Source: an uncultured Bacilli bacterium (lineage in GTDB: Bacteria > Bacillota_I > Bacilli_A > RFN20 > CAG-826). From it: a DNA stretch of 64,000 nucleotides. Numbering within the stretch: position 1 is the stretch's first letter; each line of letters opens with the position of its first letter. A program made the translations under genes and the position numbers. The stretch lies in assembly GCA_944375905.1 (NCBI GenBank), contig CALWAS010000027.1, positions 57,679 to 121,678 of the forward strand. Direction: 5' to 3'. The notes beneath the pieces are model-generated. The model had not been told where the DNA came from and did no database searches. It was given only the letters and a program-made list of their open reading frames with translations. This document shows, piece by piece, positions 1-21,667 of the stretch.

Positions 1-1979
1 TTGATGTACTCCACCGAGATATCCTGGTCTTTGTCGAGCAAAGTGATAATGAGCTGAGAGCAATTTTGCGGCAAAACTTGGCATGCCCGAGTGACGTTGT
101 CCTTATCGAAGTTTGAGAAAGGCGCGTCAAGAACTAGCGGGAATTCTTCAGATTCATCGTCATCGGCATCCCTCAAAACGTCGTTCCGATGGCGGGCCAT
201 ATAAACCAGACTTGAAACGAAAGCAAGGTTTTTCATGCCGCTCTCGGCTTGAGATAAAACTTTCTTGTCTCTCGCCCCCATGGCGTAATAGGGCGTGACA
301 TTGAAATTGGCTTCCCCAATCTTAAAAGTCACAGTCTTATCTCCGCTTAGGTATTGATAGACCTCATTAACGCGTTTTTGCAGATTTTCCACAACCGATT
401 TTCGAGCCGACTCGCGCCTAGATTCTGCAAATTCCCTAACGTCGTCTAGACATTCGAGGCAAGCATTCAAATATTTATTTTTTTCGTTCGAAGCTTCAAA
501 ACTACTGATGTTCTTATTGATGCTGTCCAATTGTTTATCAATATCAGAAATGTCATGCTCAGACAGCCTTTTAATTGACTCGTTCCTGGCACCGATTAGC
601 GTGGAAAGCCGCATAACATCATCATTCCAGACAGACACATCGCCAGTAAAGTTTCTCAGTTTCTGGTCACATTCCTTTATCGTGTCCCTGCACGAATCGA
701 TGTCTTTCTGACATTTCCAAATCGTCCTAAGGTGCCGGCTAACATTGGAGGCACTGTTTTTTGCTACGGGCTCAAAGGCCAATAACTCGTTTTTTAGCCC
801 GCTGAGCAAACCGGAATTGTCATTTGGCGATACATGTTTTTCCAATTCTTTTAGTTTGTTATAGATGTCGCCGCGCCCTGGAATCGGGGTTCCACAAATG
901 CAAACGCCATTATTCAAAATTTCTTCAATGGTAGCTGCCGTCAAATGTTCATAATGAACTTGACCGTCTTTTTTAATCTCTTCAAGTTTGTCAATTATCC
1001 CGGTCGTTCTGACGGCCTTTGACGCGCCCCACAAAGCAAGGAAACCTACGGTTCCTAAATCGCCGCTTAGATCATTTAGCATATATTGCATTTCCGTCTC
1101 AATTGAATCTTGCAATCTTTCTAAGTCGCGTTCGGATTCACGCCTTTGGGTTTGCCATTGTCCGGCTTCCTTATGGGCTTCTATCTGCGCTTTTTTCTCA
1201 TCTCTTTGCGCCTCAAGGAGATCTCGATCCTTTATTGTGTCAGCAAGCTGTTTTTCAAAATCTTGTTTTTTTGATACTAGTTGCTCCCTTTTGGCTTCAA
1301 GCTGTGCTTGATTCTCGAAGGAAGTTGAATCTTTTTGTTTTTCGAAGTCCTTCCAAATGGGCCCGTTTTTCTTGAGGAGATTAATAAGTTGGTCGCGCGC
1401 ATCGAAATTCATGATCCGGCTGACCGATTTTCCCAGCTCTCTTTTATCGGCAACCTCATCGATACGATTAGCCTCGCCGTCGTAAAAGAAATAATCTTTC
1501 AGGTCTTGTGGGAGAATGCTTTCTATTTCGCTTGCAGCTCTGAAATTATCAAGGATGTCAGCTTTTCCGCTCGGGTCTGATTTAAGATTGCGGAAAATGA
1601 TTTGAGTCGGCTTAGGAGAAGTCTTTTCCAGACTAGGTCCCCCGCTGCCACGTGAAACGAAATTGTATTTTTGGCTGGTACTAACAAGGTAATGGTAAGC
1701 ACCATGCTCAAGTTCAATAGTTACCTTAGCCTCGTATTGTTTGCCTAGGGCCGAGATTGGCAATGAATTTAAAACGTCTTTGTTAAAAAGGTCATCGCCT
1801 TTACCGAAAATCTCGCTATCGGGGTAAAGGCACCAGATGATTGACTTGACGAAAGTCGTTTTCCCTACGTGGTTAGAACCATATATTACGGTGACGTTCT
1901 TGCCATCTTTGCTCGAGAGGTCGACAGTTTGATCTTTGAATTGTCGAAAATTACTATAGGAAATTGACAAGATTTTCAT
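1..1979 (-). CDS. DndD/SspC-like SMC-family ATPase, truncated by the window edge (C-terminus lies beyond position 1)
   Basis: Minus-strand ORF starting at the ATG at 1979-1977, with GGAG 9 nt upstream. It stays open to position 1 and is absent from the ORF track only because no stop lies in the window. My by-eye translation gives an N-terminus MKILSISYSNFRQFKDQTVDLSSKDGKNVTVIYGSNHVGKTTFVKSII, which is an RecF/SMC/DndD-type N-terminal Walker A. Long coiled-coil-like K/E/Q-rich middle segments follow. The C-terminus reads FPLVLDAPFSNFD, a Walker B/D-loop. The AT-rich codon usage matches the island. Confidence 0.6.
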   Translation of the reverse strand, partial: MKILSISYSNFRQFKDQTVDLSSKDGKNVTVIYGSNHVGKTTFVKSIIWCLYPDSEIFGKGDDLFNKDVLNSLPISALGKQYEAKVTIELEHGAYHYLVSTSQKYNFVSRGSGGPSLEKTSPKPTQIIFRNLKSDPSGKADILDNFRAASEIESILPQDLKDYFFYDGEANRIDEVADKRELGKSVSRIMNFDARDQLINLLKKNGPIWKDFEKQKDSTSFENQAQLEAKREQLVSKKQDFEKQLADTIKDRDLLEAQRDEKKAQIEAHKEAGQWQTQRRESERDLERLQDSIETEMQYMLNDLSGDLGTVGFLALWGASKAVRTTGIIDKLEEIKKDGQVHYEHLTAATIEEILNNGVCICGTPIPGRGDIYNKLKELEKHVSPNDNSGLLSGLKNELLAFEPVAKNSASNVSRHLRTIWKCQKDIDSCRDTIKECDQKLRNFTGDVSVWNDDVMRLSTLIGARNESIKRLSEHDISDIDKQLDSINKNISSFEASNEKNKYLNACLECLDDVREFAESRRESARKSVVENLQKRVNEVYQYLSGDKTVTFKIGEANFNVTPYYAMGARDKKVLSQAESGMKNLAFVSSLVYMARHRNDVLRDADDDESEEFPLVLDAPFSNFDKDNVTRACQVLPQNCSQLIITLLDKDQDISVEYI

Positions 1980-2126
1980 CTTTAGTGCTCCCCAGAACTC
2001 TCCCGAACGGTTTTTTCTATCATTTTCTCGAAGTCGGAGCTAAGCGATTTAACTTCGCCACGCTGGGCCTGCACTTTCATGATCTTCCGAAGGAAATCCT
2101 GATAGAGTGCAGAAACCATCTCGTTA

Positions 2127-4295
2127 TCAATACCCATTGTCGCCAGAATCCTCCCAAAGCGAGACCTGATCTAAGCGATAAGCTTCCATGATTTGGCTTC
2201 GCAAGGCCTCGCTATCAGATGCATTGTCTGCTTCGTTTGCAAATTCTTCAACCCTTTGCAATTCGCGCTTTGCCAATCCCTGCTCAAGGCGCATTGCATC
2301 ATCATCTAAAAACTTGAGTTGTGAAAGGGGCCGAGTGATTGTCACGAAATCGTAAATTTCTGCAATTCGTTTGCCACTGCGGTAATCTTGCCGAAGCAGC
2401 CTGCCTCTCCTTTGAATGTACTCTTTGGGGTTAGTCGTCGAGGCCAAAATGAACGCCGTCCTGATGCACGGGATATCGATTCCTTCGTCAAGACAGCGAA
2501 TGGCAACGAGAGTGTCGATTGTTCCGTCTTTGAAAAGCGAAATCAACTTCTCCCTTTCTTCGGGATCCTCTTGGGCCGTAAAGCGGAAAGCTTTCATTTT
2601 GTGCACGCCATTTAGCAATTGAAGGACGTCACTTATTTGCTTTTGGGACTCGCCTGGGTCTCGGTCCTTATAAGTAACCGACCCGCAATAAACAAGGTTG
2701 AACTTTGATTTTTCATAATTGGTTATCGCCTCATCAAGCGCGCCTAGCTTGTTTCTTGCCCCCGCTACCACAATTGACCGCTTGATCAAATCACGGCGAA
2801 GCTGATTATCTTCATCTGCAGAAAGATAGGATGCCTCAGCCATTATTTTCTTTGTTAGTTTTAAATACTCATAACGCTCATCATCGTCGAGAGCGACAAG
2901 AATTGGGTAATAGCGATAGTGGCATAGAACGCCATTTTCTATTGCCTCTGGAAGCGTATATCGGATAAGGCACGTGCCAAAGAAATTAAGAATCTTATCC
3001 GTACCGAGAGCATCGTGATGACGAGTTATCGTCGCCGAAAGTCCGAGTCGGTAGCGAAAGTCGATCGAAAGGACCTGGCTAGTTTGAGAGGCTCCCAGAT
3101 TATGGCACTCGTCAGCTAGGAAAATCGTCCGCTTTTTAACCGTCTCCAAAATGCTGAGAACCTCAGGCTTGATGAGACTTGATGAAGTAATGATAGCGGC
3201 TTCGAACTTGCTGTAGCCGCCTTTTACGGCCGCTGCGTATTCTTGAAAGCTAGTGAGCCATGTACGCGAATTTCCGCAGCAAATCAGCGGTTTGATCTTA
3301 TATTTTTCGCAATTTTCATTCCACTGATAAACAAGGTTGATCTGAGGAACAACGATAAGCAGGAAGAACGATTTTGAGCTCTTTTCAGGATCTTCGACTA
3401 GCGAAACGACGGCTCCCAATGATGTAATTGTCTTGCCTGTCCCGGTAGCCATATCGAAATAGCCCCTGTAATCATTTTCCTTCCACGCTTGGATGGCTTT
3501 TCTTTGATAGTCGTAATATTTAATGTTTGCGTTTCCCAGACGCGTGTTTAATAGGCGTTGCTTGAACTTCTGCCTCGCATACTCGCGATCAAGATTTTCA
3601 AGTTCTTCTTTGCTAAAGGAGTCTTTGTAAACAAGGATTTTTTCCTTTACTGCTTCCGGAAATTCGATGATTTGCATCCTACTATCGTGATTTGTCCATT
3701 TTCGATTGAACAATATCTTGTGTTCTTGGCATCTAGTCGATGTGTCAGAACCATTCCAAGAGCAGAAAACTTCGGTCGACTCGCGGTTCAAAAGCAAGCC
3801 ATTTGCAGTCAGATTTCCCGAAGAATGGGCAAGGACAACATTTCCAACGCAGTCGGTAAATATATTGATTTTTTCATGAAGCATTTGTTCAGGGCCACCC
3901 GAATTAAGAACGCCGATCTTGATGTCGAGAATGCCATGGCTCACTAGATAAGACAGAAGAGAGAGATACCCTTTTTCAAATTCGTCGCGAGGATCTTCCC
4001 AGGTTGTAAGAAGACGCTTTTCAATTGTTTCCCTAAGTTCATAGCCCTTCGAAATGGCCTCGGCTTCATCCTCCTTCAAGGCCGTCGAAAGGATGAGGTG
4101 AATACGACCATAGTTGTTCGAAATCATTGGGCAAAGCCCGGCCGCTAGCATTTTGAGACTGACGGCCGAGAAGAATCCGGAGATCCCTTCATAGAGCACC
4201 GACTCTTTAAGACACGGAACATAAAGGTCGTCGATGACATCGTCGACCTGCGTCTCATAATGCATTCTCAACTCAAGATCCGATAATGCCATCAA
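2127..4295 (-). CDS. Superfamily-2 DECH-box helicase (ResIII/SNF2-like) with a roughly 270-aa N-terminal domain; candidate restriction/effector component
   Basis: 722-aa ORF. Helicase motifs are Walker A DMATGTGKT, motif II FLADECHNLG, motif III LSATITR and motif VI QRRGRLLR. The N-terminal region contains HEKINIFTD...SSGNLT, a degenerate HxK(x5)D...SGN arrangement reminiscent of PLD/HKD nuclease motifs but with non-canonical spacing. A 4-bp ATGA overlap joins it to the upstream cysteine desulfurase gene. Confidence 0.75.
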   Translation of the reverse strand: MMALSDLELRMHYETQVDDVIDDLYVPCLKESVLYEGISGFFSAVSLKMLAAGLCPMISNNYGRIHLILSTALKEDEAEAISKGYELRETIEKRLLTTWEDPRDEFEKGYLSLLSYLVSHGILDIKIGVLNSGGPEQMLHEKINIFTDCVGNVVLAHSSGNLTANGLLLNRESTEVFCSWNGSDTSTRCQEHKILFNRKWTNHDSRMQIIEFPEAVKEKILVYKDSFSKEELENLDREYARQKFKQRLLNTRLGNANIKYYDYQRKAIQAWKENDYRGYFDMATGTGKTITSLGAVVSLVEDPEKSSKSFFLLIVVPQINLVYQWNENCEKYKIKPLICCGNSRTWLTSFQEYAAAVKGGYSKFEAAIITSSSLIKPEVLSILETVKKRTIFLADECHNLGASQTSQVLSIDFRYRLGLSATITRHHDALGTDKILNFFGTCLIRYTLPEAIENGVLCHYRYYPILVALDDDERYEYLKLTKKIMAEASYLSADEDNQLRRDLIKRSIVVAGARNKLGALDEAITNYEKSKFNLVYCGSVTYKDRDPGESQKQISDVLQLLNGVHKMKAFRFTAQEDPEEREKLISLFKDGTIDTLVAIRCLDEGIDIPCIRTAFILASTTNPKEYIQRRGRLLRQDYRSGKRIAEIYDFVTITRPLSQLKFLDDDAMRLEQGLAKRELQRVEEFANEADNASDSEALRSQIMEAYRLDQVSLWEDSGDNGY

Positions 4296-5419
4296 AAAGC
4301 CTCCACCGCCTTTAATAATGTAATGATATCTTCTTCATTATTAAACACGCCGAGACTAACGCGAACCGTGCCTCCAAAGACCTTCGACCCAATGAAATCA
4401 TGTATGAGCGGCGCACAATGATAGCCAGTCCGCACCGAAATCCCTTCGTTAGCTAGAATCGTCCCTATATCGTCGGACTTATAGCCATCAATGGCAAAGG
4501 AAACAATGCCGTTGTATTTGCAATTTGGTGCAAAGAATAAATGCGTTTTTGGCATCTTACTTAAGCCGTCAATAAGCATCTTTGTTTCTTTTGAAATGGT
4601 TTCGGCTATCTTTGAACGGTTTTCTCTAACAAATCTTGCGCCAGGTATCAAAGAGGCAATCGCCGAAACATTGCGGCTGCCCGCTTCATATCGATAGGGA
4701 AGATCAGCCGGCATTTCCGGATTCAAAGAATCAGATCCCGTGCCGCCGCATATGACAGGAGGCAAATCGCGGTCTCTCATAACGATGAAGCCCCCGACCC
4801 CAAAGCAGCCATAAAGCGTTTTGTGGCCCGCAAAGACAACATAATCCGCATCAGCTAGCCCGCACAACGGATGGATTCCGTAGGCCTGGGCAGCATCAAG
4901 GACATTCACTGAATCGTATTTTCTTCCCAAAGCGAAAATTGCCTCATGCGATATCCTCGCCCCGGTAACGTTGGAAATAGCGCTGAGGAAGATGGCTAGA
5001 GGGTGATCTAGAACGAACATTCGTTCAATTGTTGGAAGATCGGGTTCCCAGTTTTCATCGAAGGGAAGAACCTTGACCTTTACGCCATCATCCTTCAGCC
5101 TTTCTAAGGGCCGGATGATCGCGTTATGCTCGAAGGGAGAAATATAAATCGTGTCGCCCTCCACCGCACCAAGTCCAAGAATGAGGATATTCAAGGCTTC
5201 GGTCGCCGACGAAGCAAAAACGACATGGGACGGATCGATGCCGTTCTCTAGAGAGGCAACGGCCACTCTGGCCTCTTCCACGATGTCGCTTGCCGCTTGG
5301 CTCTCTTTCGATTCGCCACGGCCAGCGTTGAAAGCCAACGTCCGGTTTATCTTGTCGACAAAGTCATAAACTTCTTTCGGTTTGGGAAAAGTCGTTGCTG
5401 CATTGTCCAAATAGATCAT
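4292..5419 (-). CDS. Cysteine desulfurase, class V aminotransferase family (DndA/SspA/IscS-like)
   Basis: 375 aa. N-terminal MIYLDNAATTFPKP is the NifS/IscS signature start. The PLP-lysine motif is FAGHKTLYG, with a glycine-rich loop containing Cys (VICGGTGSD). Start and stop overlap both neighbours, placing it inside the operon. Confidence 0.8.
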   Translation of the reverse strand: MIYLDNAATTFPKPKEVYDFVDKINRTLAFNAGRGESKESQAASDIVEEARVAVASLENGIDPSHVVFASSATEALNILILGLGAVEGDTIYISPFEHNAIIRPLERLKDDGVKVKVLPFDENWEPDLPTIERMFVLDHPLAIFLSAISNVTGARISHEAIFALGRKYDSVNVLDAAQAYGIHPLCGLADADYVVFAGHKTLYGCFGVGGFIVMRDRDLPPVICGGTGSDSLNPEMPADLPYRYEAGSRNVSAIASLIPGARFVRENRSKIAETISKETKMLIDGLSKMPKTHLFFAPNCKYNGIVSFAIDGYKSDDIGTILANEGISVRTGYHCAPLIHDFIGSKVFGGTVRVSLGVFNNEEDIITLLKAVEAF

Positions 5420-8400
5420 TTATCGCTCTCCTTCAAAAGATTGCCAAAGACGTAGAGCAAATCGTTTTTGGAAAGGGCTTGGTTGTATTGCGATAGGATT
5501 TCCCGGATCTGGTTCTCGACAATGTTGGATACTGGCGATAGCTTGGATTCATCGACTACCGATAGCATTTCGCTCGCCGCTCCGAAGGCAGATTTAGCTG
5601 TCTTAAATTTGTCTGAGACAAGATAAGCTAGGAACTGCTCGATCGTTTTGAAGAACATTTCCCGGTTTTTGCCGTTCCAATCAGAGAAATGCAAATCAAT
5701 GGCAGCAATAGAAAGCTCATCAATGAGGGTAGGATCAAAATGCGACTTAGATTCATAAATGGCCTTGGCGATTTGGTTGTACCGGAAATCCCCGACGCCT
5801 TCCTCAACGCTGTACCCGGCTTTCCTTTCGATGCCTTGGAGAATCGAGAGCAACGATCCTTTTTTGCCGGCGATGCCAGGCATCGAAAGAAGCCTTGTTG
5901 AAGTTGATTTCGCCAATTTTGTCTCCATCTCTTCGAAAGACTTCTTTTCTTTCTCTAGGGCGGAGAGGAGCTTATCGAGCCCAATGACCTTGAAATTTCG
6001 CGGCAGGAATTCAAAGAAGAAGTCATTGGGCGAAAGATCATACTTGGTGAGCTCGGCCAAAAAGGTTTCTTTCTCCTTGGAAATGACCATCGGAAATCCA
6101 GCGGCCGTCGCAGTTCGAACAACTTGAGGGAGATTCCGAAACCAGTTCTTAAGACAGTCGAGGGCCTTTTTCCCAGCGCTCCGACCGTCGGCCTCGGCTT
6201 TCCCGCCAAACAATGAAATGACACCGGTAATGAAATCGCTCCGCTCTTTGGCACCACGATCGATCTTAATCTTCCATTCATCAATTTTTGGAGAGGAGAT
6301 GGCCTTATTGATGCCAGCTGAAGAAAATTCCTCCTCTTTCTTCCCGAAATAGAGGCCGAAAGCCTTGTCATCGGCAACTCCAAGTCTTAGGACAGCTAGG
6401 GTAATGAAGAGCGGGATGACGCCCTGTCTTATGCCGTAAGGAGGCTCAATGAGCTTTTGAAGGATCGGCGACACGGAAACCATAATCGCATCCTTACCGT
6501 TCAGCATCCCTTCGACTATTTTGGTCGCGGCATTGATGCCATAAGGATCGCCTTCGGCTTTTGCTTTTTCAAAGAAAATACGATAAATGGTGTTTTCCGG
6601 GCTCGATTCGCTCGTTTCCTCAATGACAGCCCTCTGATTGTCCCCTTTCGTAAGGAGGATGTCGATCAGGCGATCGCGCGCTTTCGCGTAGTTTTTCGTC
6701 GGGTGATCGCGGTTAAGCAACTCGTTATTCACGATCGGGGTATCGGAATAAACCTTCTCGAAAACGCTGCTAAGGATTTCGCTCGCGGTTTTTCCACTGA
6801 AGTTGACTGAAGAAAAGAAGCACGATCCACTATCCTTGTACGCTTTGCCGATGACGGCTCTTATATCGGACTGCAAACGGCTTTTCATCACGTGAAGAGC
6901 TGCCTTGTCATTGTTGCTGAGGCCAGCATCGGTCTCCATTCGCTCATAAGCCTTCCATAAGGAAAGGGCGTGCTCCATGGCATCAAGAGGGAGAGAATTT
7001 GGAACTTGGACGATTATCTTTGGGTCATTGATTTCCTTGACCTTTTTCATGATTGAGTCAGGGCTTCCGCTTGCATCGAAGATCCTTACGATTATTCCGT
7101 CGTATGGCCACCCATAGAGATCCTTGAAAGAAGATAGAGCAAGGAAGGATTCAGAATCGATGTAAGTGATTCTTGCATACCTTGTCATTCGCTTTTGAAC
7201 GTTGTAAGCAAAAGAAGCGACATAGTCGTCCTTGAATATTTCCTTAAGGGCATCGACGGGAGAATAACGACGTAATTCCTTCCTGATTATTTTCTCGGCT
7301 CGGGCATTTATTTCTTTGCTTCCGACGAAAGCGAAATCAAGCCCCCCATCGAATCTGTTAACGCGTACGGCGCCTTCCTTCTCGAGCAAACTTATTTTGT
7401 CGAGTACCTCCTCAAGGGGCAAATCGAGAGCGAGAGCCAAGGTCTGGGCGTTTGCCTTAAGCTTTGTTGAAGGTTGGAGCATGAGGCAGACAGCCATGCC
7501 CTTAACAATCTTCTTGATCTCCGCATCATCATATTTCGAGCAAGTAGCATCACAGCTATAGGCTAGGTTTTTCAAACGATGGTCTGGGCTATCAAAAATC
7601 TGTTTTTCGAAGTAATCCCAAACCGAGTCGATGCCGATAAGATGCCCATTGTTATCCTGTTCGACGAGGGAACGTAGGCCATTGGGATCACTCCCATAAA
7701 TAAAAGTGAACAAGGTGCGCTCGTTCTGCGCAACCTCTTCGTTGATTCTAAGCAAGGCAAAAGTGCTCAATGGGTTTAGTGGGAAGACTAGAGAAGAAAG
7801 CTTTTCTGCATCGATGCCATCAGCAGCTTTGCTAAAGACGCCGAGACGATCGATTTGCCCGAAGTAGTCTTTATTTTTTTCAATATAATCTGCAAAGAAG
7901 GCATTGAAAGCCGAGAGCTTCTCAATGGCAAAGTTGATAAGCTCGGCGCTCTCTTTGAGCGCACGATCAAACTGGCGGAATACAAAGCGCCCTTCGACGG
8001 CCTGAAGAATTTCATTGACGCGATCGTCTTTGGAATAAAGGGAGGTCTTTTTGTGGGCTATGCAGCAAAAATGTATCGAGTAGTTACTATCGCTTCGATT
8101 GGAAAGCTCGGCAAAGTCCTGGATGAAACGAAGCTCGTCGCCGTGGTTTTCAGGGCTTGATTCAAGAAACTTAGAAAATTCGTCAAAGACAACAAAAAGC
8201 CCATCGAACCCGCGCTTTTTAAGTGAAGAGGCCACCGCTTTGTACGTACCGATGGGGTCAGAAGCCAGAATCGGGTTGAACTCACCGCCAGATGTAATGC
8301 AACGATAAATATCACCAAATCGTTTAAAGGCTTGCTCCGAATAAGAACGGAGATCATTGATAAGACGATCGACCTCGCCTTTTTTCAGGTTGCACTGGTC

Positions 8401-8913
8401 AAACTTAGTAGATGAAATGATCCTGTCTTTCTTCCAAGACGAAAGAAGGCGGGCGGCTTCCTCGTAAGCGGTATATGGAACGAGGTCTTCACAATGAGCC
8501 AGCATGAGCCCCGAGCGCAGCCCATTCATAAAGGCTTGCTTCATGCTGCCAAAAGAAGGGCTAATTACGATTGGTATGTAACTTTTGTGATTTTTGATCT
8601 TAGACACAAGATCTGGATCAACCACTTCGACTCTAGAGATGAACTTGTCTAGAGATTTCGCGCTCGCCGCGCCGAACAGAATTTGAAGAATAGCCAGCAG
8701 AAGAAACGATTTTCCTTTGCCATACGCCCCAATAAGCTGGGTCGATTGATTCCGGTTATAGGCCACGTCATCTAGGTAGTCCCCGAGAATCTCGCAAACA
8801 TCAGAAGTTGGGAGATATTCCGTTAGTTTATCAGCCGAGTCTAGGTCAAACTCGATGTTTATTGACGGCTCAAATCGCTCATTCACTCGAATAAGATCAG
8901 TTAGCCTAGTCAT
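5416..8913 (-). CDS. Large P-loop NTPase, BrxC/PglY-like in size and architecture (hypothesis)
   Basis: 1165 aa. N-terminal Walker A GAYGKGKSFLL and Walker B-like LFVVFDEF, followed by roughly 900 aa with no other recognisable motifs. The size (about 1200 aa) and the N-terminal ATPase followed by a long helical body resemble BREX BrxC/PglY-type ATPases. Its start overlaps the stop of the 296-aa ORF by 8 bp, and its stop overlaps the start of the cysteine desulfurase by 4 bp. Confidence 0.5.
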   Translation of the reverse strand: MTRLTDLIRVNERFEPSINIEFDLDSADKLTEYLPTSDVCEILGDYLDDVAYNRNQSTQLIGAYGKGKSFLLLAILQILFGAASAKSLDKFISRVEVVDPDLVSKIKNHKSYIPIVISPSFGSMKQAFMNGLRSGLMLAHCEDLVPYTAYEEAARLLSSWKKDRIISSTKFDQCNLKKGEVDRLINDLRSYSEQAFKRFGDIYRCITSGGEFNPILASDPIGTYKAVASSLKKRGFDGLFVVFDEFSKFLESSPENHGDELRFIQDFAELSNRSDSNYSIHFCCIAHKKTSLYSKDDRVNEILQAVEGRFVFRQFDRALKESAELINFAIEKLSAFNAFFADYIEKNKDYFGQIDRLGVFSKAADGIDAEKLSSLVFPLNPLSTFALLRINEEVAQNERTLFTFIYGSDPNGLRSLVEQDNNGHLIGIDSVWDYFEKQIFDSPDHRLKNLAYSCDATCSKYDDAEIKKIVKGMAVCLMLQPSTKLKANAQTLALALDLPLEEVLDKISLLEKEGAVRVNRFDGGLDFAFVGSKEINARAEKIIRKELRRYSPVDALKEIFKDDYVASFAYNVQKRMTRYARITYIDSESFLALSSFKDLYGWPYDGIIVRIFDASGSPDSIMKKVKEINDPKIIVQVPNSLPLDAMEHALSLWKAYERMETDAGLSNNDKAALHVMKSRLQSDIRAVIGKAYKDSGSCFFSSVNFSGKTASEILSSVFEKVYSDTPIVNNELLNRDHPTKNYAKARDRLIDILLTKGDNQRAVIEETSESSPENTIYRIFFEKAKAEGDPYGINAATKIVEGMLNGKDAIMVSVSPILQKLIEPPYGIRQGVIPLFITLAVLRLGVADDKAFGLYFGKKEEEFSSAGINKAISSPKIDEWKIKIDRGAKERSDFITGVISLFGGKAEADGRSAGKKALDCLKNWFRNLPQVVRTATAAGFPMVISKEKETFLAELTKYDLSPNDFFFEFLPRNFKVIGLDKLLSALEKEKKSFEEMETKLAKSTSTRLLSMPGIAGKKGSLLSILQGIERKAGYSVEEGVGDFRYNQIAKAIYESKSHFDPTLIDELSIAAIDLHFSDWNGKNREMFFKTIEQFLAYLVSDKFKTAKSAFGAASEMLSVVDESKLSPVSNIVENQIREILSQYNQALSKNDLLYVFGNLLKESDK

Positions 8914-9796
8914 GGATGCGAACCTCCATCTTGTGGACGATATTCCTTAGATCGATGCTTTCAGCCGGCATTTCTACAACATTGAGTCCTGCCGTCCTAA
9001 CAACATTGATCAAATTCATCGACTTAAGACGATCGAGGACGGTCATAAATTCATCACGATTCAAATTGAATAGGCGGCCGGGTCCGTTTTTTGCCTCTAG
9101 AAGAGAATCAATCGTATCCTCGTGCGACTTAGATGCTTTCAAAAGGAGGTAATAAAAAACGTATGGCTCAATCTTGTCGAGATCGATCGGCTTTTTTTGA
9201 TAAAGCTGCGTTTCCTTTCTTTCTAGAAGCGAAAAGGCGGAAAGAGGACAATTAAGGTTGTTTTCGGGATCATCGATGGGATCCGATACATAGGTTCTAA
9301 CCAAAACGCTAAGATCGTCGCTCACGATCGATTCCTGTGGGGATTCCCCAAAGTGCTCAGCGCACCACTCCCCAAACGAACGAATGAACGTCTCTTTGCT
9401 AAATGATTCATGGGGCAGCATTTCATTGAAGAGGAAATAGAAAAGAGGCGCCTTGGATTCGGAGGCCACAATGTTCGCATGGATCAGCTGCCAGCTGCCG
9501 GCTTTGAGAAGATAAGGATCAGCTTCGAAAATGATGCTTGCTTCCTCTGAAAGTTCAGGCTTTAGCTTTTTGTTGACGTCCAAAAGACCGGCACATTCCA
9601 TCCAATAGCGAAGAGCCGATACCATGTTCGACCCTATTCCGAGGCAGACGGGGCCATCGCTTTTCGAAAATACATTGAAGCGCCCATTGGCGTTAATAAG
9701 CTCACGATAGGCCTTGCTTAACCAACCTTCGCGAATGGAAAAACTCTGGCTAAGCTTGAATTGGGGCTTGGTCATCCGTGATTCATTGTTTTCCAT
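8906..9796 (-). CDS. Hypothetical protein (296 aa), translationally coupled between the DndC-like and BrxC-like genes
   Basis: ORF with AT-rich island codon usage. It overlaps the DndC-like stop by 14 bp and the downstream start by 8 bp. I recognise no catalytic motif; it lacks the DGQHR/ParB-like signature of DndB/SspB. Confidence 0.55.
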   Translation of the reverse strand: MENNESRMTKPQFKLSQSFSIREGWLSKAYRELINANGRFNVFSKSDGPVCLGIGSNMVSALRYWMECAGLLDVNKKLKPELSEEASIIFEADPYLLKAGSWQLIHANIVASESKAPLFYFLFNEMLPHESFSKETFIRSFGEWCAEHFGESPQESIVSDDLSVLVRTYVSDPIDDPENNLNCPLSAFSLLERKETQLYQKKPIDLDKIEPYVFYYLLLKASKSHEDTIDSLLEAKNGPGRLFNLNRDEFMTVLDRLKSMNLINVVRTAGLNVVEMPAESIDLRNIVHKMEVRIHD

Positions 9797-11537
9797 TTTT
9801 GATCCTCAGAACTTTCTTCATGTAGCAACCGCTGTCGAAGTGTGAAACGCACTCAAGACAATGCCGGCACTTGTCGGGATTAATCGTATATATGACAGAA
9901 TCGAGAGAAGCATCGCCTTTCTTTGAATTCGAGACATGCAGCGCTCCAAAACGGCATACAGACTCGCAAGCGCCACAAGCAAGGCAGGTTTGGAACTTGG
10001 TAATCTGTGAGTTAATCAAAAGCTCTCCAAGATGACGGTTTTTGAATCGGCCTTTATTACTTAAAATCGCAACCCTGAGAGTCGTGCTTCCTTTAATTCC
10101 CCTAAGCTGAAGAATCGGCTCTCTTGTCACTGAATCAAGGACATATGCCTCCCCCAGTTTCGGATTCCCCATCGAGAAATCGAGTATCCCAAATGGTTTG
10201 AAAAGGGTATAAAGCATATCGTCAATCGGCCGTGACAACTCAAAATTTATGGCATTCTCGTCAAAAGCACACGGCTTAAACGTAACGATGGTGTTTTTGC
10301 CTAAAGCAAGCCCGTTTCCGCCTTGTCTTGCCTTCCACTTGCCAGTATCGACGTATTCTTTCCAATCAGGTTTTCCAACGCTCTTGGCAAAATCATAAAG
10401 AAGATTTTGAAAATCCCCATAGAGTTCCGGCATATATATCGACGACAGAAAGCCCGACCAAATGCTGTTATTTGGACAACACCAACATCCGACACGAGAA
10501 AAGCCCTGACGGTAGGCGTGGTTGAAATCGAGTTTGTTCGAAATGATGTAAAGCCAGTCGTCAAAGGAAGTCCAATCGATGATTGGGGAGCAGACAACCT
10601 GTTTTGTTATCTTCGAATCAGCACTGTCGCGGGAATAATTGGATCGCGAAACCGATTCCATCCTGCGTACGCCGAAAAATGTCAAAATCCGCGGCGTCTT
10701 GGCAAAAAGAGACTCAATAGTCTTGGTAATGGCACCTGTCTTGAAAACGGTACAGCACCACCGCATGACCCTTGATGGCGGGCCTATCTTGCGACACAGA
10801 TCATTGAAATCCTGATCTTTGTTTTTTGCCTCAATTAGCGGCGTCCCCGGATAACGCTTCCTAAAGCGGGCGACGTATTCATGAGTCGTTGGGTATTCAA
10901 GCGTCGTATCTCCATAAATATGAACGATGGTTTCGCTTCCTAAGGACTTCATGGCAAGATGGCTCACTACCGTCGAATCCTTGCCTCCGGAGAAACTCAC
11001 GAAAGAATTCGCAGCCGTATAGCCCCTTGCCCGCTCTAATATGTAAGCAGTTGCTTCATCTGTAATTTCGGCCAGTCTTGAACGATTCACGCGGCAAAAT
11101 GCCGCGATTTCCTCTGAATCAAGGTACCCATCGACATATGGCTGATTAGCAGATGCAAATTCGGCAAGTTTTTTTCGTATCTCGCTCGGATCTCTCTTTA
11201 TCATCTGACTTTGGGAAAACTTAACGATCTGCCCGTCTATGACGTAAGATCCCGACCCGATAGCCCACACAGAGTGCCCTGCATATTTCATGGGAACATC
11301 GTTTAGGACCTCGATCAATAAACGTTCTTCGGGAAAAACGGGTCGAAGGTCGGTCCCTATCCGATGGCATTTTCCATGGCATTCCGGACAAGTATCGTAA
11401 AAGGACGGCGCGTTGCATTTAGAACACCAAAAAATCGAAGCCGAAAAGACCCTTGCCCGGCTTCCGCAAACAGGGCAGGTACTAGTTTCGCACAGCGTTC
11501 CCTGACACTCTTTTCGTTCGCATTTATATATAATCAT
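9783..11537 (-). CDS. DndC/SspD-like PAPS-reductase-family PP-loop ATP pyrophosphatase with N-terminal Zn-ribbons and a C-terminal 2x[4Fe-4S] ferredoxin-like domain
   Basis: 584 aa. The PP-loop SFSGGKDST is followed by MRWCCTVFK, the DndC/CysH-like cysteine region. The N-terminus has four CxxC pairs (CERKECQGTLCETSTCPVCGS...CSKCNAP...CPECHGKC). The C-terminus reads CLACGACESVCRFGAL...CRHCLECVSHFDSGC, the classic CxxCxxCxxxC + CxxCxxC ferredoxin pattern. It is the first gene after a roughly 325-bp AT-rich promoter-like gap. Confidence 0.8.
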   Translation of the reverse strand: MIIYKCERKECQGTLCETSTCPVCGSRARVFSASIFWCSKCNAPSFYDTCPECHGKCHRIGTDLRPVFPEERLLIEVLNDVPMKYAGHSVWAIGSGSYVIDGQIVKFSQSQMIKRDPSEIRKKLAEFASANQPYVDGYLDSEEIAAFCRVNRSRLAEITDEATAYILERARGYTAANSFVSFSGGKDSTVVSHLAMKSLGSETIVHIYGDTTLEYPTTHEYVARFRKRYPGTPLIEAKNKDQDFNDLCRKIGPPSRVMRWCCTVFKTGAITKTIESLFAKTPRILTFFGVRRMESVSRSNYSRDSADSKITKQVVCSPIIDWTSFDDWLYIISNKLDFNHAYRQGFSRVGCWCCPNNSIWSGFLSSIYMPELYGDFQNLLYDFAKSVGKPDWKEYVDTGKWKARQGGNGLALGKNTIVTFKPCAFDENAINFELSRPIDDMLYTLFKPFGILDFSMGNPKLGEAYVLDSVTREPILQLRGIKGSTTLRVAILSNKGRFKNRHLGELLINSQITKFQTCLACGACESVCRFGALHVSNSKKGDASLDSVIYTINPDKCRHCLECVSHFDSGCYMKKVLRIKNGKQ

Positions 11538-11862
11538 GTGCGTTCAGAAAGATTGTACCATGTACTTATTGGGACAGTCTTATCGATGCTCCACAAAAGA
11601 GCCAAACACAATCTGTAGGAACCTTTTATTTCTGACATCATTTTGTCTAAATTTCTTGATATTTCGTCAGTCAACGAAGTAATTTACTCGATTATGTCTT
11701 AATCATATAAAATATGTATTCGTAAGTTAAAAAACTGATTGTATGTTCCATTTTGCTTGCCAGGAATAAAAGCCATGCGCGATAACTTAATAAAGAAGGT
11801 TGCCGTTTTTCTTGCTGAACAACAGTTTCGCTGACACTTCTATAGCTGGACGTTGTGAAAAG

Positions 11863-13284
11863 TCAGGCATCGTTGCCATTTAGCGAAAGGTAGAATCTCG
11901 AATCCGAATAAATCGCTCCCGTATCCCTTATCAAAAAGGTCTTTGACAAATATGAACGGACTATTCCAACCAGAAGGTATTTGTTCCATTCATAGTCCAA
12001 TTGGGGCAGATTCCAAAAACTGAAATATTCGTCAACTCTGATTTCTTTTTTCTCTCCAATCTCCGATTTTAAACCTCTGGTTATGGATTCTATCGTTTCT
12101 TCGCTTAACTGAAATTTGCTTTTAGAAACGATGCGATTGGAATCCACTTCCACATAATCGGGCGCAGTAATGTCCAAAAGCCATTTCCTGCTGTCTATAC
12201 CGTTGATATGGATCCTTTGGCAAAATTTATTTATCTCATCGAAAGAAATGATTTCTTTGCTATAAACGAATTCTATGATCAAATCGTCTCCGGTAAGTTT
12301 GATCCGCTTAGTTGCTGAAACATATGGCTCCTTAAAGAAATATTTTCTTCCATAGTAACAAGCGGCAAGAAAATACAAGCCCTGCTCATTTGCAAAAGAT
12401 CCTAATTCTTTCAAGAAAGTCGGATGGGCGATAGCAAAAGACGAATACAACTTACCTCTTGCAACAACTCCCACTGGGCTGCTTGAAATGATTTTCCGTA
12501 ACGTAGAGCCGATGCAAATAATAGCTGCTTCGCTGATTTTTTCATCGGCAAGGCGACGATAAGAAGAACGATTGCGCAAAAAGTCCTCATAGTAAGAAAG
12601 ATATCTCTCAACCAGTTCGATCTTCTTTTGATCGAAGAATTCACCCTTTGCTTTGGCTATTGTTTTGTCCCTTAAGGAACAAAAATTGTTGAGAGAGTCC
12701 AGAAGGAAGAAGTCGGTAAATGACTTGCTGACCTTTCGAAGCAATCCGTTGATTATCTGGAAACTGTCAATGACAGCCTTAACTGATGCCGGGGAAAACC
12801 GCCTGATGGTCAATGCTTGGACAAATTCATCCTTTGTTTCCTTGGCGAAATGAGCCTTAGCTTCCTCGGGTTCCGCGACCGGATGGCAATGATAAAGGAA
12901 AAAGCACTCCTTTAAATCGACGCCATAGGCTTCCAAAAGACATTGAATGTTCATCATCGAATGGCTAGACGTGTGGTTGGTGTCGAGATAAAGGTCGCGA
13001 AACGGAGAATAGTTGGTCCTTCGAGTCCGGGAGAAAACTACGCACTTGCTCCACTTGTAACGGATGGAGAGCAGTTCTTCATCGCTTTTTGGATTGCGGC
13101 GGTCTAATTCGGAAAGAATACCAAGTGTCATTCGGTTCCAGCTTCCGGCACAGACCAAAATATCACGGTAGCTAAACAAATAAGGGGTTGTGTTTTCCAA
13201 ACACGGCAGCGGATTCGTCATGTCGAATTCGTAGTAGCGCCTACCATCGATATATCGAATTTTATATTTCTCTTCTATTCCCAC
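11863..13284 (-). CDS. Hypothetical protein (473 aa), first gene of the AT-rich island inside the boundary
   Basis: Long ORF with island-like AT-rich codon usage and no recognisable motifs. It has the same orientation as the modification operon and lies directly inside the GC-content transition. Confidence 0.5.
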   Translation of the reverse strand: MGIEEKYKIRYIDGRRYYEFDMTNPLPCLENTTPYLFSYRDILVCAGSWNRMTLGILSELDRRNPKSDEELLSIRYKWSKCVVFSRTRRTNYSPFRDLYLDTNHTSSHSMMNIQCLLEAYGVDLKECFFLYHCHPVAEPEEAKAHFAKETKDEFVQALTIRRFSPASVKAVIDSFQIINGLLRKVSKSFTDFFLLDSLNNFCSLRDKTIAKAKGEFFDQKKIELVERYLSYYEDFLRNRSSYRRLADEKISEAAIICIGSTLRKIISSSPVGVVARGKLYSSFAIAHPTFLKELGSFANEQGLYFLAACYYGRKYFFKEPYVSATKRIKLTGDDLIIEFVYSKEIISFDEINKFCQRIHINGIDSRKWLLDITAPDYVEVDSNRIVSKSKFQLSEETIESITRGLKSEIGEKKEIRVDEYFSFWNLPQLDYEWNKYLLVGIVRSYLSKTFLIRDTGAIYSDSRFYLSLNGNDA

Positions 13285-13411
13285 GTTTTGTAAATGATAA
13301 CGCAGATCCCGACCGACGAATATTTATTTACAAATTGAACAAACTGAGTCCCCTTCTCCTTCACTTTGCCATAAAAAACTGTCTCTAAAATTGTCTTATG
13401 CAATATGGAAA

Positions 13412-13452
13412 CCGCAGCAAAAAGCCCGGCTTCGATAAGAAACCGGGCTCTC
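13412..13452. terminator. Bidirectional rho-independent terminator at the island/host junction
   Basis: AAAAAGCCCGGCTTCGATAAGAAACCGGGCTCTCTTTTT has a GCCCGG/CCGGGC stem flanked by an A-run and a T-run. On the minus strand it lies just downstream of the stop of the 770-aa lipoprotein gene. Confidence 0.5.
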
Positions 13453-13466
13453 TTTTTCGTTTTACC

Positions 13467-21044: not shown

Positions 21045-21073
21045 GGAGAGATTGTAACGAGCGAAAAGATGGC

Positions 21074-21667
21074 TCACCAAACGAAATCGCCCTTGATGAG
21101 CTTTTTCCGGCACCGCTCGTAATCGGGGAACTCGCTTTTGAGGAGGATGTGGAAGCCCCGTCCGTGGTCGAAATAGAAATGATGGCAAAGCTCATGGACG
21201 ACGACGCTATCGATGATATGGGGATCGTAGCTCGACAAAGAGAGGGCGAAAGTGAGGGCGTGGCTCCTCCGGGAGTTCGAGCCAAGGCGGGTCTTCATCT
21301 TCCTCACCTTGACCGCATAGGGCGGGAAGACCCCGATTTTCCCTTCGTAAGAGGCAACGGCCTCCCGAAGGTAGGCGAGCAATAGCCGCTTCCTTTCCGC
21401 TTCGCCCGGTTCGGCTTCGACCTTCTTCCCAAAGAGGTAGCACCCGTCTTCTTTCTTCGAACGCTCAAGCAAGGAGAGAATCGACCGCTCGCTTTTCTTT
21501 ATCAAGGAGAGGACGTCCGAAAATCTCATGGCATAGGGTGCGGAAACCGCGATTCCCCCGTCCCTAGCGGGCCGGAAATACACCCTTTTGATTCTCTTGA
21601 AGCGGACCTCGACGCGGATTTCCCTCCCGCCAAGGACGATCCTTCCCTCTTCGAGCCGCTCTTTCAT
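21074..21667 (-). CDS. DUF45/YgjP-like metal-dependent hydrolase (HExxH)
   Basis: 197 aa. C-terminal VVHELCHHFYFDHGRGFHILLKSEFPDY is the YgjP/WLM-type zinc-hydrolase motif. The remaining sequence context also fits the family. Confidence 0.7.
   Translation of the reverse strand: MKERLEEGRIVLGGREIRVEVRFKRIKRVYFRPARDGGIAVSAPYAMRFSDVLSLIKKSERSILSLLERSKKEDGCYLFGKKVEAEPGEAERKRLLLAYLREAVASYEGKIGVFPPYAVKVRKMKTRLGSNSRRSHALTFALSLSSYDPHIIDSVVVHELCHHFYFDHGRGFHILLKSEFPDYERCRKKLIKGDFVW

What the first reader, a model, noticed from the sequence alone, without database searches (positions are those of the whole stretch)
1..13460. AT-rich island encoding a non-canonical phosphorothioate-like sulfur-modification module fused with BREX-like and helicase components
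A roughly 13.4-kb block of AT-rich DNA (about 40% GC, against about 60% or more in the flanking host sequence) carries seven co-directional minus-strand genes. Most are joined by overlapping start and stop codons. The array contains the three defining enzymes of DNA phosphorothioation: a NifS-like cysteine desulfurase, a DndC/SspD-like PP-loop ATP pyrophosphatase, and a DndD/SspC-like SMC ATPase. DndB and DndE equivalents and SspB/SspE equivalents are absent. In their place are a roughly 1165-aa BrxC/PglY-like P-loop NTPase, a DECH-box SF2 helicase, and two ORFs (296 and 473 aa) with no motifs. BREX type 4 is the only described system that couples a PAPS-reductase to BrxC, but it uses PglZ and BrxL and has no cysteine desulfurase, DndD or helicase. 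This gene combination therefore fits none of the described Dnd, Ssp or BREX layouts and is a candidate new hybrid defence system. It continues past the left edge of the window.
Basis: partly seen in the sequence, partly recalled or inferred. Interest (0 to 1): 0.9.

Follow-up and report, generated by a model that had tools for sequence, protein, structure and literature searches.

The report
Ssp sulfur-marking operon fused to PbeABCD
This low-GC island carries one tightly packed operon that joins two already-described anti-phage modules: an Ssp-type set of enzymes that puts sulfur into the DNA backbone, and the PbeABCD restriction-like set. I found no paper that names this pairing, although it is common in gut bacteria.

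Summary
The island is real: 45% GC against 58% in the host, with co-directional minus-strand genes that overlap by 1-14 nt. It is not a motif-less hybrid.

HMM searches resolve every core gene:
- The 584-aa protein is SspD, a PAPS-reductase/PP-loop enzyme with the BrxP-like Zn-ribbon and ferredoxin architecture.
- The "motif-less" 296-aa ORF is SspB (DUF4007). It also matches the solved SspB structure.
- The 1165-aa "BrxC-like" NTPase is SspC.
- The 375-aa protein is the desulfurase SspA.
- The helicase is PbeA, an HKD nuclease fused to an SF2 helicase.
- A missed 51-aa ORF sits where PbeB belongs.
- The "DndD-like SMC" is PbeC, a CxC ABC ATPase.

An identical metagenome contig supplies the missing left end: full PbeC, a 180-aa PbeD and the island border. 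There is no PglZ or BrxL, so this is not BREX.

The order sspD-B-C-A-pbeA-B-C-D recurs in 34 of 67 related loci from gut Bacillota and Mollicutes genomes. The same Ssp module elsewhere carries SspFGH or DUF262/SspE-like effectors instead.

Verdict: a new pairing of two known modules. I call it a new variant of a known kind, of moderate interest. The 473-aa ORF is not a core part. Together with a 105-aa gene, it brackets a defence hotspot whose cargo differs in a related genome.

The parts
9783..11537 (-). sspD: 584-aa PP-loop ATP pyrophosphatase (PAPS-reductase fold). It has N-terminal Cys4 zinc ribbons and a C-terminal 2x[4Fe-4S] ferredoxin domain, which is the BrxP-like architecture.
   Evidence: Pfam PAPS_reduct 1.5e-33, plus Fer4 and Fer4_7. 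PADLOC BrxP 4.4e-77 (residues 59-583 align to BrxP model positions 23-518 of 779), SspD 2e-12, DndC 4e-8. Invariant in 13 homologues: SGGKDS PP-loop (S183-S188), RWCC, CWCCPNN, and two ferredoxin-type cysteine clusters, C518/C521/C524/C528 and C557/C560/C563/C571. More than 7,000 database homologues, mostly about 582 aa.
8906..9796 (-). sspB: 296-aa DUF4007 protein, the DNA-recognition/nicking subunit of the Ssp modification complex.
   Evidence: Pfam DUF4007 3.6e-61. Nine PADLOC SspB models, best 1.1e-42. phmmer hit to solved SspB 6JUF/6LB9 at E=1.8e-12. Always directly follows sspD in 81 loci.
5416..8913 (-). sspC: 1165-aa P-loop ATPase, a homologue of BrxC/PglY.
   Evidence: Twelve PADLOC SspC models, best 3.4e-72. 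BrxC models are weaker, best 5.4e-22. Walker A G62-x-x-G-K-G-K-S69 and Walker B D244-E245 are conserved in at least 90% of 71 homologues.
4292..5419 (-). sspA: 375-aa PLP-dependent cysteine desulfurase.
   Evidence: Pfam Aminotran_5 4.6e-66. PADLOC SspA 1.1e-33 and DndA 4.5e-33. TIGR01977 318 bits. PLP lysine H199-K200 and catalytic C335 are conserved in at least 95% of 70 homologues.
2127..4292 (-). pbeA: 721-aa HKD (PLD-family) nuclease domain fused to a DECH-box SF2 helicase.
   Evidence: PADLOC PbeA 1e-203 over the full length. TIGR04095 dnd_restrict_1 3.3e-140 on residues 257-708 (468 bits, below the 600-bit cut-off). ResIII, Helicase_C and DEAD. Weak PLDc_2 hit on residues 124-176, E=0.021. 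H140, K142, D148, S159, N161, GTGKT, D395-E-x-H398 and QRRGR are conserved in at least 90% of 35 homologues.
1982..2137 (-). pbeB: 51-aa small protein.
   Evidence: Called as a 51-aa gene on the identical contig L001. ORFs of 50-53 aa sit at the same position in L002-L005. No family hit, as expected for the fast-evolving small protein described in PMC10853773. Assigned by size and position only.
1..1979 (-). [quoted passage not shown] The first 659 of 683 aa are in the window. The gene ends 72 bases beyond the left edge.
   Evidence: PADLOC PbeC 2.8e-74 (249 bits) against DndD 79 bits on the full protein from L001. Walker A GKTT and C360-x-C362-G are conserved in at least 90% of 36 homologues. 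The motif 'GVCICGTP' is read directly from the sequence.
11538..11862 (-). 325-bp AT-rich intergenic region upstream of sspD. It is the likely promoter region of the operon.
   Evidence: This is the only gap longer than 14 nt inside the array. One sigma-70-like match at 11730..11702, which is not above chance expectation. The role is inferred only.
11863..13284 (-). 473-aa flanking gene ('X473'), probably a multi-domain DNA-binding protein. It borders the island and is not a core component of the system.

Best explanation
The island carries a two-module, phosphorothioate (PT)-based restriction-modification-like defence operon, sspD-sspB-sspC-sspA-pbeA-pbeB-pbeC-pbeD.

Modification half (inferred from the characterised Ssp and BREX type 4 enzymes):
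- SspA takes sulfur from cysteine as a persulfide.
- SspD, a PP-loop ATP pyrophosphatase with Fe-S clusters, receives the sulfur and delivers it.
- SspB (DUF4007, tandem winged helices) recognises and nicks the target.
- SspC, a BrxC-like ATPase, powers scanning.
- The product is host DNA carrying PT on one strand of a short motif, most likely of the CpsC type.

Effector half (inferred from the haloarchaeal DndCDEA-PbeABCD system and from domain content):
- PbeC (CxC ABC ATPase) and PbeD scan DNA.
- PbeA (HKD nuclease plus SF2 translocase) blocks or cuts incoming DNA that lacks the PT mark.
- PbeB is a small regulator.

The SspD here is the 'split BrxP' form. SspD followed by SspB matches the two halves of the BREX type 4 protein BrxP, and SspC matches BrxC. 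The modification half is therefore the PT-synthesis core shared by Ssp and BREX type 4, but its partner is PbeABCD rather than PglZ/BrxL, SspE or SspFGH.

The identities of the parts are shown by sequence evidence. Every biochemical step is inferred, as is the functional coupling of the two halves. The confidence given (0.75) blends about 0.9 for the identity of the parts with about 0.65 for the functional coupling of the two halves.
For: - Family assignments. PbeD has a weak TIGR04062 dnd_assoc_4 hit at E=6e-4, and it is 25-27% identical to the ORFs that follow PbeC-like genes in L064 and L077.
- Catalytic motifs are intact and conserved.
- Single-operon packing, including a 1-nt overlap at the sspA/pbeA junction.
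- An identical contig completes the operon and shows no PglZ or BrxL up to the island border.
- The same eight-gene order occurs at 80%, 68% and 65% SspD identity in unrelated genomic contexts.
- PbeA (with or without a detectable PbeC) directly follows sspA in 34 of 67 informative GTDB species loci.
- Pairwise-identity correlation between Ssp and Pbe proteins is rho 0.42-0.73. Within the Ssp module it is 0.70-0.84, and for PbeA-PbeC 0.83. Xiong et al. reported 0.107 for DndCD-PbeAC (PMC6459918, read).
- The same Ssp module pairs elsewhere with SspFGH and with DUF262/SspE-like effectors. This marks it as a genuine PT-writing module with exchangeable readers.
- Literature: BrxP = SspD+SspB and BrxC = SspC. 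BrxP, BrxC and a desulfurase suffice for PT synthesis (preprint 10.1101/2024.06.03.597175, also held as PMC12914056). The ferredoxin-bearing PAPS-reductase architecture is noted in BrxP and 'a subset of SspD' (PMC12839542). PbeABCD needs PT and stops virus DNA replication (PMC6459918). PbeA-D were re-annotated as HKD-SF2, small protein, CxC ABC ATPase and DndE cognate (PMC10853773).
Against: - Nothing here is experimental. PT in this host, the target motif and phage restriction are all untested.
- CxC/Pbe systems also occur without any PT genes. Rakesh et al. question whether they are dedicated PT readers (PMC10853773).
- PbeABCD was characterised only with double-stranded Dnd-type PT, whereas Ssp writes single-stranded PT.
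- PbeD could not be shown to be DndE-like.
- PbeB is assigned by size and position only.
- Pairwise-identity correlations are not independent data points and are inflated by shared phylogeny.
- About half of the related Ssp loci lack Pbe, so the pairing is frequent but not obligatory.
Confidence: 0.75

Rival explanations
1. The Ssp module and the PbeABCD (CxC-anchored) module are two independent defence systems that merely sit side by side in a defence island. Ssp writes PT for another purpose or another reader. Pbe acts on its own, for example as a suicide or abortive-infection nuclease released through PbeB.
For: CxC/Pbe systems occur without PT genes in many taxa, and their dependence on PT has been questioned (PMC10853773). 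320 of 553 PbeAC pairs lack nearby dndCD (PMC6459918). The same Ssp module is found with several other effector sets. The site is a hotspot where cassettes are swapped.
Against: Overlapping start and stop codons at the sspA/pbeA junction, and no intergenic gap anywhere from sspD to pbeD. The fixed order recurs in 34 of 67 loci across divergent genomes. Ssp-Pbe identity correlations reach 0.73. In the one system tested experimentally, Pbe activity required PT (PMC6459918).
Confidence: 0.2
2. One reading: a new hybrid of BREX type 4, Dnd and helicase components that lacks SspB-like and DndE-like specificity factors and works by a mechanism outside the Dnd, Ssp and BREX frameworks.
For: SspD scores best against the BrxP model, and SspC is a BrxC homologue. 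The complete eight-gene layout is not named in any paper I could search.
Against: SspB is present. A PbeD-family protein is present just outside the window. There is no PglZ or BrxL anywhere in the island. Every core protein belongs to an existing PADLOC family of the Ssp or Pbe systems, with E-values from 1e-33 to 1e-203.
Confidence: 0.05
3. The operon is a decayed or silent remnant carried in a horizontally acquired island and has no current function.
For: Foreign base composition. No expression data.
Against: All eight ORFs are intact and full length relative to their homologues, with every catalytic motif conserved. The sequence is 100% identical over 13,048 bases to a metagenome scaffold assembled separately (ENA ERZ28615327).
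Confidence: 0.05

Closest known systems
SspABCD PT-modification module (Vibrio cyclitrophicus FF75 / E. coli 3234/A; partners SspE or SspFGH)
   Same: The four families are the same: desulfurase SspA, DUF4007 SspB (sequence match to the solved SspB), the large P-loop ATPase SspC, and the PAPS-reductase SspD. In related loci the same module is followed by SspFGH or by DUF262/SspE-like proteins.
   Different: The gene order is D-B-C-A. SspD is 584 aa with zinc ribbons and a ferredoxin domain. It matches the PADLOC SspD model (277 positions) only over the PP-loop core, at 45 bits. The partner here is PbeABCD, not SspE or SspFGH.
DndCDEA-PbeABCD (Haloterrigena jeotgali A29), also described as the CxC ABC-ATPase/DndE-anchored system
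   Same: A four-gene effector cassette in the same order: HKD-SF2 helicase, small protein, CxC ABC ATPase and a protein of about 150-180 aa. It sits directly downstream of a PT-writing module.
   Different: The PT writer here is Ssp-type (SspB and SspC in place of DndE and DndD). The mark is therefore expected on one strand only. PbeD is 180 aa and only weakly similar to TIGR04062.
BREX type 4 (BrxP, BrxC, PglZ, BrxL, with or without a cysteine desulfurase)
   Same: SspD+SspB are collinear with BrxP. SspC is homologous to BrxC. A desulfurase is encoded alongside. The ferredoxin-bearing PAPS-reductase architecture is shared.
   Different: SspD and SspB are separate genes. PglZ and BrxL are absent from the whole island. 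SspC and SspB score much better against Ssp models than against Brx models.

Membership tests
SspABCD PT-modification module | PAPS-reductase / PP-loop ATP pyrophosphatase (SspD) | tested here: met
   PAPS_reduct 1.5e-33. SGGKDS is invariant. PADLOC SspD 2e-12, although the BrxP model scores higher at 4.4e-77.
SspABCD PT-modification module | DUF4007 protein SspB | tested here: met
   DUF4007 3.6e-61. PADLOC SspB 1.1e-42. PDB SspB 6JUF/6LB9 at 1.8e-12.
SspABCD PT-modification module | Large P-loop ATPase SspC (BrxC-related) | tested here: met
   PADLOC SspC 3.4e-72. Walker A and B conserved.
SspABCD PT-modification module | Cysteine desulfurase SspA (or IscS in trans) | tested here: met
   Aminotran_5 4.6e-66. 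PADLOC SspA 1.1e-33. K200 and C335 conserved.
SspABCD PT-modification module | Produces single-stranded PT at a short motif (CpsCA-type) | not testable with these tools
   Needs LC-MS/MS of PT dinucleotides or PT-seq on host DNA.
PbeABCD / CxC-DndE anchored system | PbeA: HKD nuclease fused to an SF2 helicase | tested here: met
   PADLOC PbeA 1e-203. Helicase domains. The H-x-K...D...S-x-N motif is conserved in at least 90% of 35 homologues. The Pfam PLDc_2 hit is only sub-threshold, E=0.021.
PbeABCD / CxC-DndE anchored system | PbeB: small, fast-evolving protein between pbeA and pbeC | tested here: met
   A 51-aa ORF at 2137..1982. ORFs of 50-53 aa sit at the same place in L002-L005. There is no sequence family to test against.
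PbeABCD / CxC-DndE anchored system | [quoted passage not shown] | tested here: met
   PADLOC PbeC 2.8e-74, above DndD at 1.2e-22. C360-x-C362 and Walker A conserved.
PbeABCD / CxC-DndE anchored system | PbeD: DndE cognate downstream of pbeC | tested here: inconclusive
   A 180-aa ORF directly follows pbeC on L001. Weak TIGR04062 dnd_assoc_4 hit at 6.4e-4, below the cut-off. Homologous to the ORFs after PbeC-like genes in L064 and L077. No Pfam DndE hit and no PDB hit.
PbeABCD / CxC-DndE anchored system | PT-dependent block of virus replication | not testable with these tools
   Needs phage challenge with and without PT synthesis.
BREX type 4 | PglZ phosphatase | tested here: not met
   No PglZ hit in PADLOC or Pfam for any protein from X473 to the island's far border.
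BREX type 4 | BrxL Lon-like protease | tested here: not met
   No BrxL hit.
BREX type 4 | BrxP (PAPS-reductase fused to DUF4007) and BrxC | tested here: inconclusive
   Homologous and collinear. SspD aligns to BrxP model positions 23-518 and SspB to positions 528-769. However, they are two genes here, and SspB and SspC score far better against Ssp models.
DndABCDE | DndD paired with DndE, and DndC with its own cysteine dyad | tested here: not met
   DndC models reach only 4e-8 and TIGR03183 only 32 bits against a cut-off of 290. The ABC ATPase is of the CxC/PbeC type and lies in the effector half. No canonical DndE is present.

The most novel reading that the evidence does not exclude
PbeABCD (CxC ABC ATPase, DndE-like protein and HKD-helicase) is a general PT reader that can use the single-stranded, Ssp/BrxP-type PT mark. 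On this reading Ssp-Pbe is a fourth, previously unnamed Ssp-based defence type alongside SspE and SspFGH. It would be widespread in gut Bacillota. It would also show that the Ssp/BREX-4 PT-writing core is a portable cassette that plugs into mechanistically unrelated effectors.
Probability: 0.55. Interest if true: 0.5.

Novelty: new variant of a known kind. Interest (0 to 1): 0.4.

Why it matters
PT-based defence is usually described as a few fixed pairs: Dnd-DndFGH, Dnd-Pbe, Ssp-SspE, Ssp-SspFGH and BREX type 4.

This operon and its many relatives show a further stable pair, Ssp with PbeABCD. It is built on the BrxP-like form of SspD that links Ssp to BREX type 4.

The pairing bears on an open dispute: whether PbeABCD really reads PT, and whether it can do so on hemi-modified DNA.

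It also points to cultured gut strains with the same layout in which this could be tested directly: Eubacterium segne BX4, Eubacterium album LFL-14, Neopoerus faecalis CMD_1836 and Oscillospiraceae bacterium 38-13.

It does not reveal a new enzyme or a new kind of modification.

Tried and rejected
- A genome-contig scan with PbeA alone found no relatives. The second scan, using an SspD alignment, worked.
- The search for homologous proteins with PbeD returned nothing, not even the query itself.
- PDB sequence searches with SspC and with PbeD (single sequence and a 3-sequence profile) gave no meaningful hit.
- I looked for mobility signatures. There are no tRNA genes and no Rfam matches in the window. 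No direct or inverted repeats of 11 nt or more link the two island borders. No integrase was found in the sequence examined.
- Promoter and terminator scans were not above shuffled expectation.
- X473 was considered as an extra system component. I rejected it as a core part because it is absent upstream of sspD in L004-L006 and precedes a different cassette in L086-L088. Fold searches found no enzymatic fold.
- The source organism could not be named. Cluster look-ups carry no names, and P0121 was not found as an exact gene product.
- The 2020 ABC-ATPase classification paper (Krishnan et al., NAR 48:10045) is not held. I could not check whether it already depicts a CxC system next to Ssp genes.
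- The held supplement of PMC10853773 does not mention SspB, SspC or DUF4007.
Full report
**Observation**

Window 1 to about 13,400 is compositionally distinct. Its GC is 45.2%, against 57.8% for the rest of the window.

All long ORFs in the block are on the minus strand:
- 13284..11863, 473 aa
- 11537..9783, 584 aa
- 9796..8906, 296 aa
- 8913..5416, 1165 aa
- 5419..4292, 375 aa
- 4292..2127, 721 aa
- 1979..1, an ORF that runs off the left edge

From the 584-aa gene onward, neighbouring genes overlap by 1-14 nt or are 2 nt apart. The only real gap is 325 bp, between the 473-aa gene and the 584-aa gene.

**What the genes are**

Pfam, PADLOC and NCBIfam scans assign every core gene.
- The 584-aa protein has a PAPS_reduct domain (1.5e-33) and a 4Fe-4S dicluster domain. 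Its best PADLOC model is BrxP (4.4e-77, residues 59-583 aligned to model positions 23-518 of 779). The SspD model (2e-12) and DndC models (4e-8) are much weaker.
- The 296-aa protein is DUF4007 (3.6e-61). It matches nine SspB models (best 1.1e-42) and the solved SspB structure 6JUF/6LB9 (1.8e-12).
- The 1165-aa protein matches twelve SspC models (best 3.4e-72). BrxC models are clearly weaker (5.4e-22).
- The 375-aa protein is a class-V aminotransferase-type cysteine desulfurase (SspA 1.1e-33, DndA 4.5e-33).
- The helicase matches PbeA over its full length (1e-203). Residues 257-708 match TIGR04095 'DNA phosphorothioation system restriction enzyme' (3.3e-140; 468 bits, below the 600-bit cut-off).
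- The truncated ATPase matches PbeC. On the full protein it scores 249 bits against PbeC and 79 bits against DndD.

Catalytic motifs are intact and conserved across homologues:
- SspD: the SGGKDS PP-loop, RWCC, CWCCPNN and two ferredoxin-type cysteine clusters.
- SspC: Walker A and B. SspA: the PLP lysine K200 and catalytic C335.
- PbeA: H140, K142, D148, S159 and N161 (an HKD-type nuclease motif), plus GTGKT, DExH and QRRGR.
- PbeC: Walker A and the C360-x-C362 zinc-hook motif.

**The missing left end**

An ENA metagenome scaffold (L001) is 100% identical to window 1..13048 and extends 5.7 kb past the left edge. It adds:
- the rest of PbeC (683 aa);
- a 180-aa ORF in the PbeD position;
- a 433-aa ORF with no family hit;
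- a 105-aa MazG-like ORF.

GC then rises to host level. The island is therefore about 15.9 kb.

The 180-aa protein has a weak, sub-threshold hit to TIGR04062 'DNA phosphorothioation-associated protein 4' (6.4e-4). It is 25-27% identical to the ORFs that follow PbeC-like genes in two other loci. Its proposed DndE-like nature could not be tested.

No protein in the island matches PglZ or BrxL.

**Comparison with related loci**

The 584-aa protein belongs to a large, strongly conserved family. More than 7,000 database proteins match it, most about 582 aa long, and the top 120 are 55-80% identical.

The three closest contexts are at 80%, 68% and 65% identity, with different flanking genes. All show the same eight-gene order sspD-sspB-sspC-sspA-pbeA-pbeB-pbeC-pbeD.

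A scan of one genome per GTDB species found at least 517 loci. The best 80 come mostly from gut, rumen and faecal Bacillota and Mollicutes-type genomes and MAGs.
- The order sspD-sspB-sspC-sspA holds in every locus long enough to show it.
- Of the 67 loci with enough sequence after sspA, 34 have PbeA directly downstream, 32 of them with a detectable PbeC.
- The remaining loci carry other effectors after the same Ssp module: SspF/SspG, DUF262/SspE-like proteins followed by a PbeC-like ATPase, or other helicase and nuclease sets.

Pairwise-identity correlations:
- 0.70-0.84 within the Ssp module;
- 0.83 for PbeA-PbeC;
- 0.42-0.73 between Ssp and Pbe proteins.

For comparison, the literature reports 0.107 for DndCD-PbeAC and 0.58 for DndCD-DndFGH (PMC6459918). 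These correlations are not phylogenetically independent, so they are only indicative.

**Mechanism**

All steps below are inferred from homology.

The Ssp half should write PT:
- SspA mobilises sulfur from cysteine.
- SspD activates and transfers it.
- SspB and SspC find and prepare the DNA site.

The strongest experimental support comes from BREX type 4. BrxP (equivalent to SspD fused to SspB), BrxC (equivalent to SspC) and a desulfurase are sufficient for PT synthesis in Bacteroides (10.1101/2024.06.03.597175, also PMC12914056). The ferredoxin-bearing PAPS-reductase architecture seen here has been noted in BrxP and in 'a subset of SspD' (PMC12839542).

The Pbe half should act on unmarked DNA. 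In Haloterrigena, DndCDEA-PbeABCD gave about 10^4-fold protection. It required all four pbe genes and PT, and it stopped viral DNA replication without visible cleavage (PMC6459918). Rakesh et al. re-annotated PbeA as an HKD nuclease-SF2 helicase, PbeB as a small regulator, PbeC as a CxC ABC ATPase and PbeD as a DndE cognate. They argue that cleavage is likely (PMC10853773). The conserved HKD residues found here agree with an active nuclease.

**Comparison with what is known, and novelty**

Each half is a described module. What I did not find in any paper I could search is the pairing of an Ssp-type writer with PbeABCD. Published pairs are Dnd-DndFGH, Dnd-Pbe, Ssp-SspE, Ssp-SspFGH and BREX type 4. 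CxC/Pbe systems are described with Dnd genes or with cytosine methylases.

One relevant paper (Krishnan et al. 2020) is not held, so prior depiction cannot be excluded.

Membership of BREX type 4 fails on PglZ and BrxL. Membership of Dnd fails on DndC, DndD and DndE. Membership of the Ssp modification module and of PbeABCD is met for all sequence-testable features, except that PbeD is inconclusive.

I rate it a new variant of a known kind. It is frequent in public genomes and unsurprising in principle, because PT writers and readers are known to be exchangeable. It is still useful for testing whether PbeABCD reads single-stranded PT.

**The 473-aa ORF and the island**

The 473-aa protein has no family hit, but it belongs to a real family with 534 representatives.
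- Its N-terminal half also occurs alone, as proteins of about 245 aa.
- Its C-terminal half occurs at the end of proteins of about 840 aa that carry a sigma-70 region 4 HTH.

In a related genome (L086), the neighbouring SpoU methylase is 74% identical to the window's. There, a 61%-identical homologue of the 473-aa protein and an 80%-identical homologue of the 105-aa ORF bracket a completely different cassette of about 9 kb. That cassette contains DUF6339, D12 methyltransferases and a DndB-domain protein.

The Ssp-Pbe operon therefore occupies a defence hotspot whose cargo is exchanged between relatives. The 473-aa gene is a border or accessory gene rather than part of the system.

No tRNA gene, integrase or flanking repeats were found at the borders.

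Noticed in passing
window 11863-13284 (-), L001 15212-15529, and L086 1043-2482 and 11807-12124: The 473-aa ORF and a 105-aa MazG-like ORF bracket the island. In a related genome (L086, SpoU methylase 74% identical), their homologues (61% and 80% identical) bracket a different cassette of about 9 kb. That cassette contains DUF6339, D12 methyltransferases and a DndB-domain protein. This looks like a defence hotspot with exchangeable cargo.
   Followed up: partly
window 11863-13284 (-): The 473-aa protein belongs to an unannotated family with 534 representatives. Its two halves also occur separately: the N-half alone as proteins of about 245 aa, and the C-half at the end of proteins of about 840 aa with a sigma-70 region 4 HTH. 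One fusion to a PolIII-alpha-like protein also exists. The AlphaFold model (pLDDT 90.5) shows an integrase-core-binding-like helical domain and tandem winged helices. Its function is unknown.
   Followed up: partly
L087 9377-16700 and L088 677-7376: In low-GC genomes (33% GC), a 37%-identical homologue of the 473-aa protein sits next to a resolvase. It precedes a conserved cassette of 74-aa, 649-aa and 303-aa genes, DUF6339 and a D12 methyltransferase/DUF7226 protein. This appears to be an uncharacterised modification-based system.
   Followed up: no
L001 13674-14975 (about 625 to 1,926 bases left of the window edge): A 433-aa ORF starts 8 nt after pbeD, still inside the low-GC island. It has no Pfam, PADLOC or NCBIfam hit and no homologue in the other loci examined. 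It may be an extra operon member or separate cargo.
   Followed up: partly
L046 10001-21209: A 51%-identical SspD-like PAPS-reductase is not followed by sspB or sspC. About 4 kb downstream lie a DndD/PbeC-like ATPase, a 139-aa ORF that looks DndE-like by eye (not tested against any model), and a desulfurase-like ORF. This may be a Dnd/Ssp chimera in Laedolimicola ammoniilytica.
   Followed up: no
L064 17632-20218 and L077 17608-20154: A variant layout in which a PbeC-like ATPase and a PbeD-like protein follow sspA directly, with no PbeA. A 403-aa (L064) or 445-aa (L077) ORF follows.
   Followed up: no
window 13467-15779 (-), 18393-21188 (-) and 31100-33334 (+): The host flank encodes a 770-aa serine-rich lipoprotein with no family hit and two large BspA-type leucine-rich-repeat surface proteins. 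One of these also has collagen-like and Listeria-Bacteroides repeats. This is consistent with a host-associated gut bacterium.
   Followed up: no
window 13048: The otherwise identical metagenome scaffold L001 ends inside the 473-aa gene, at window 13048. This suggests an assembly break near the island border, possibly caused by strain variation at the hotspot.
   Followed up: no
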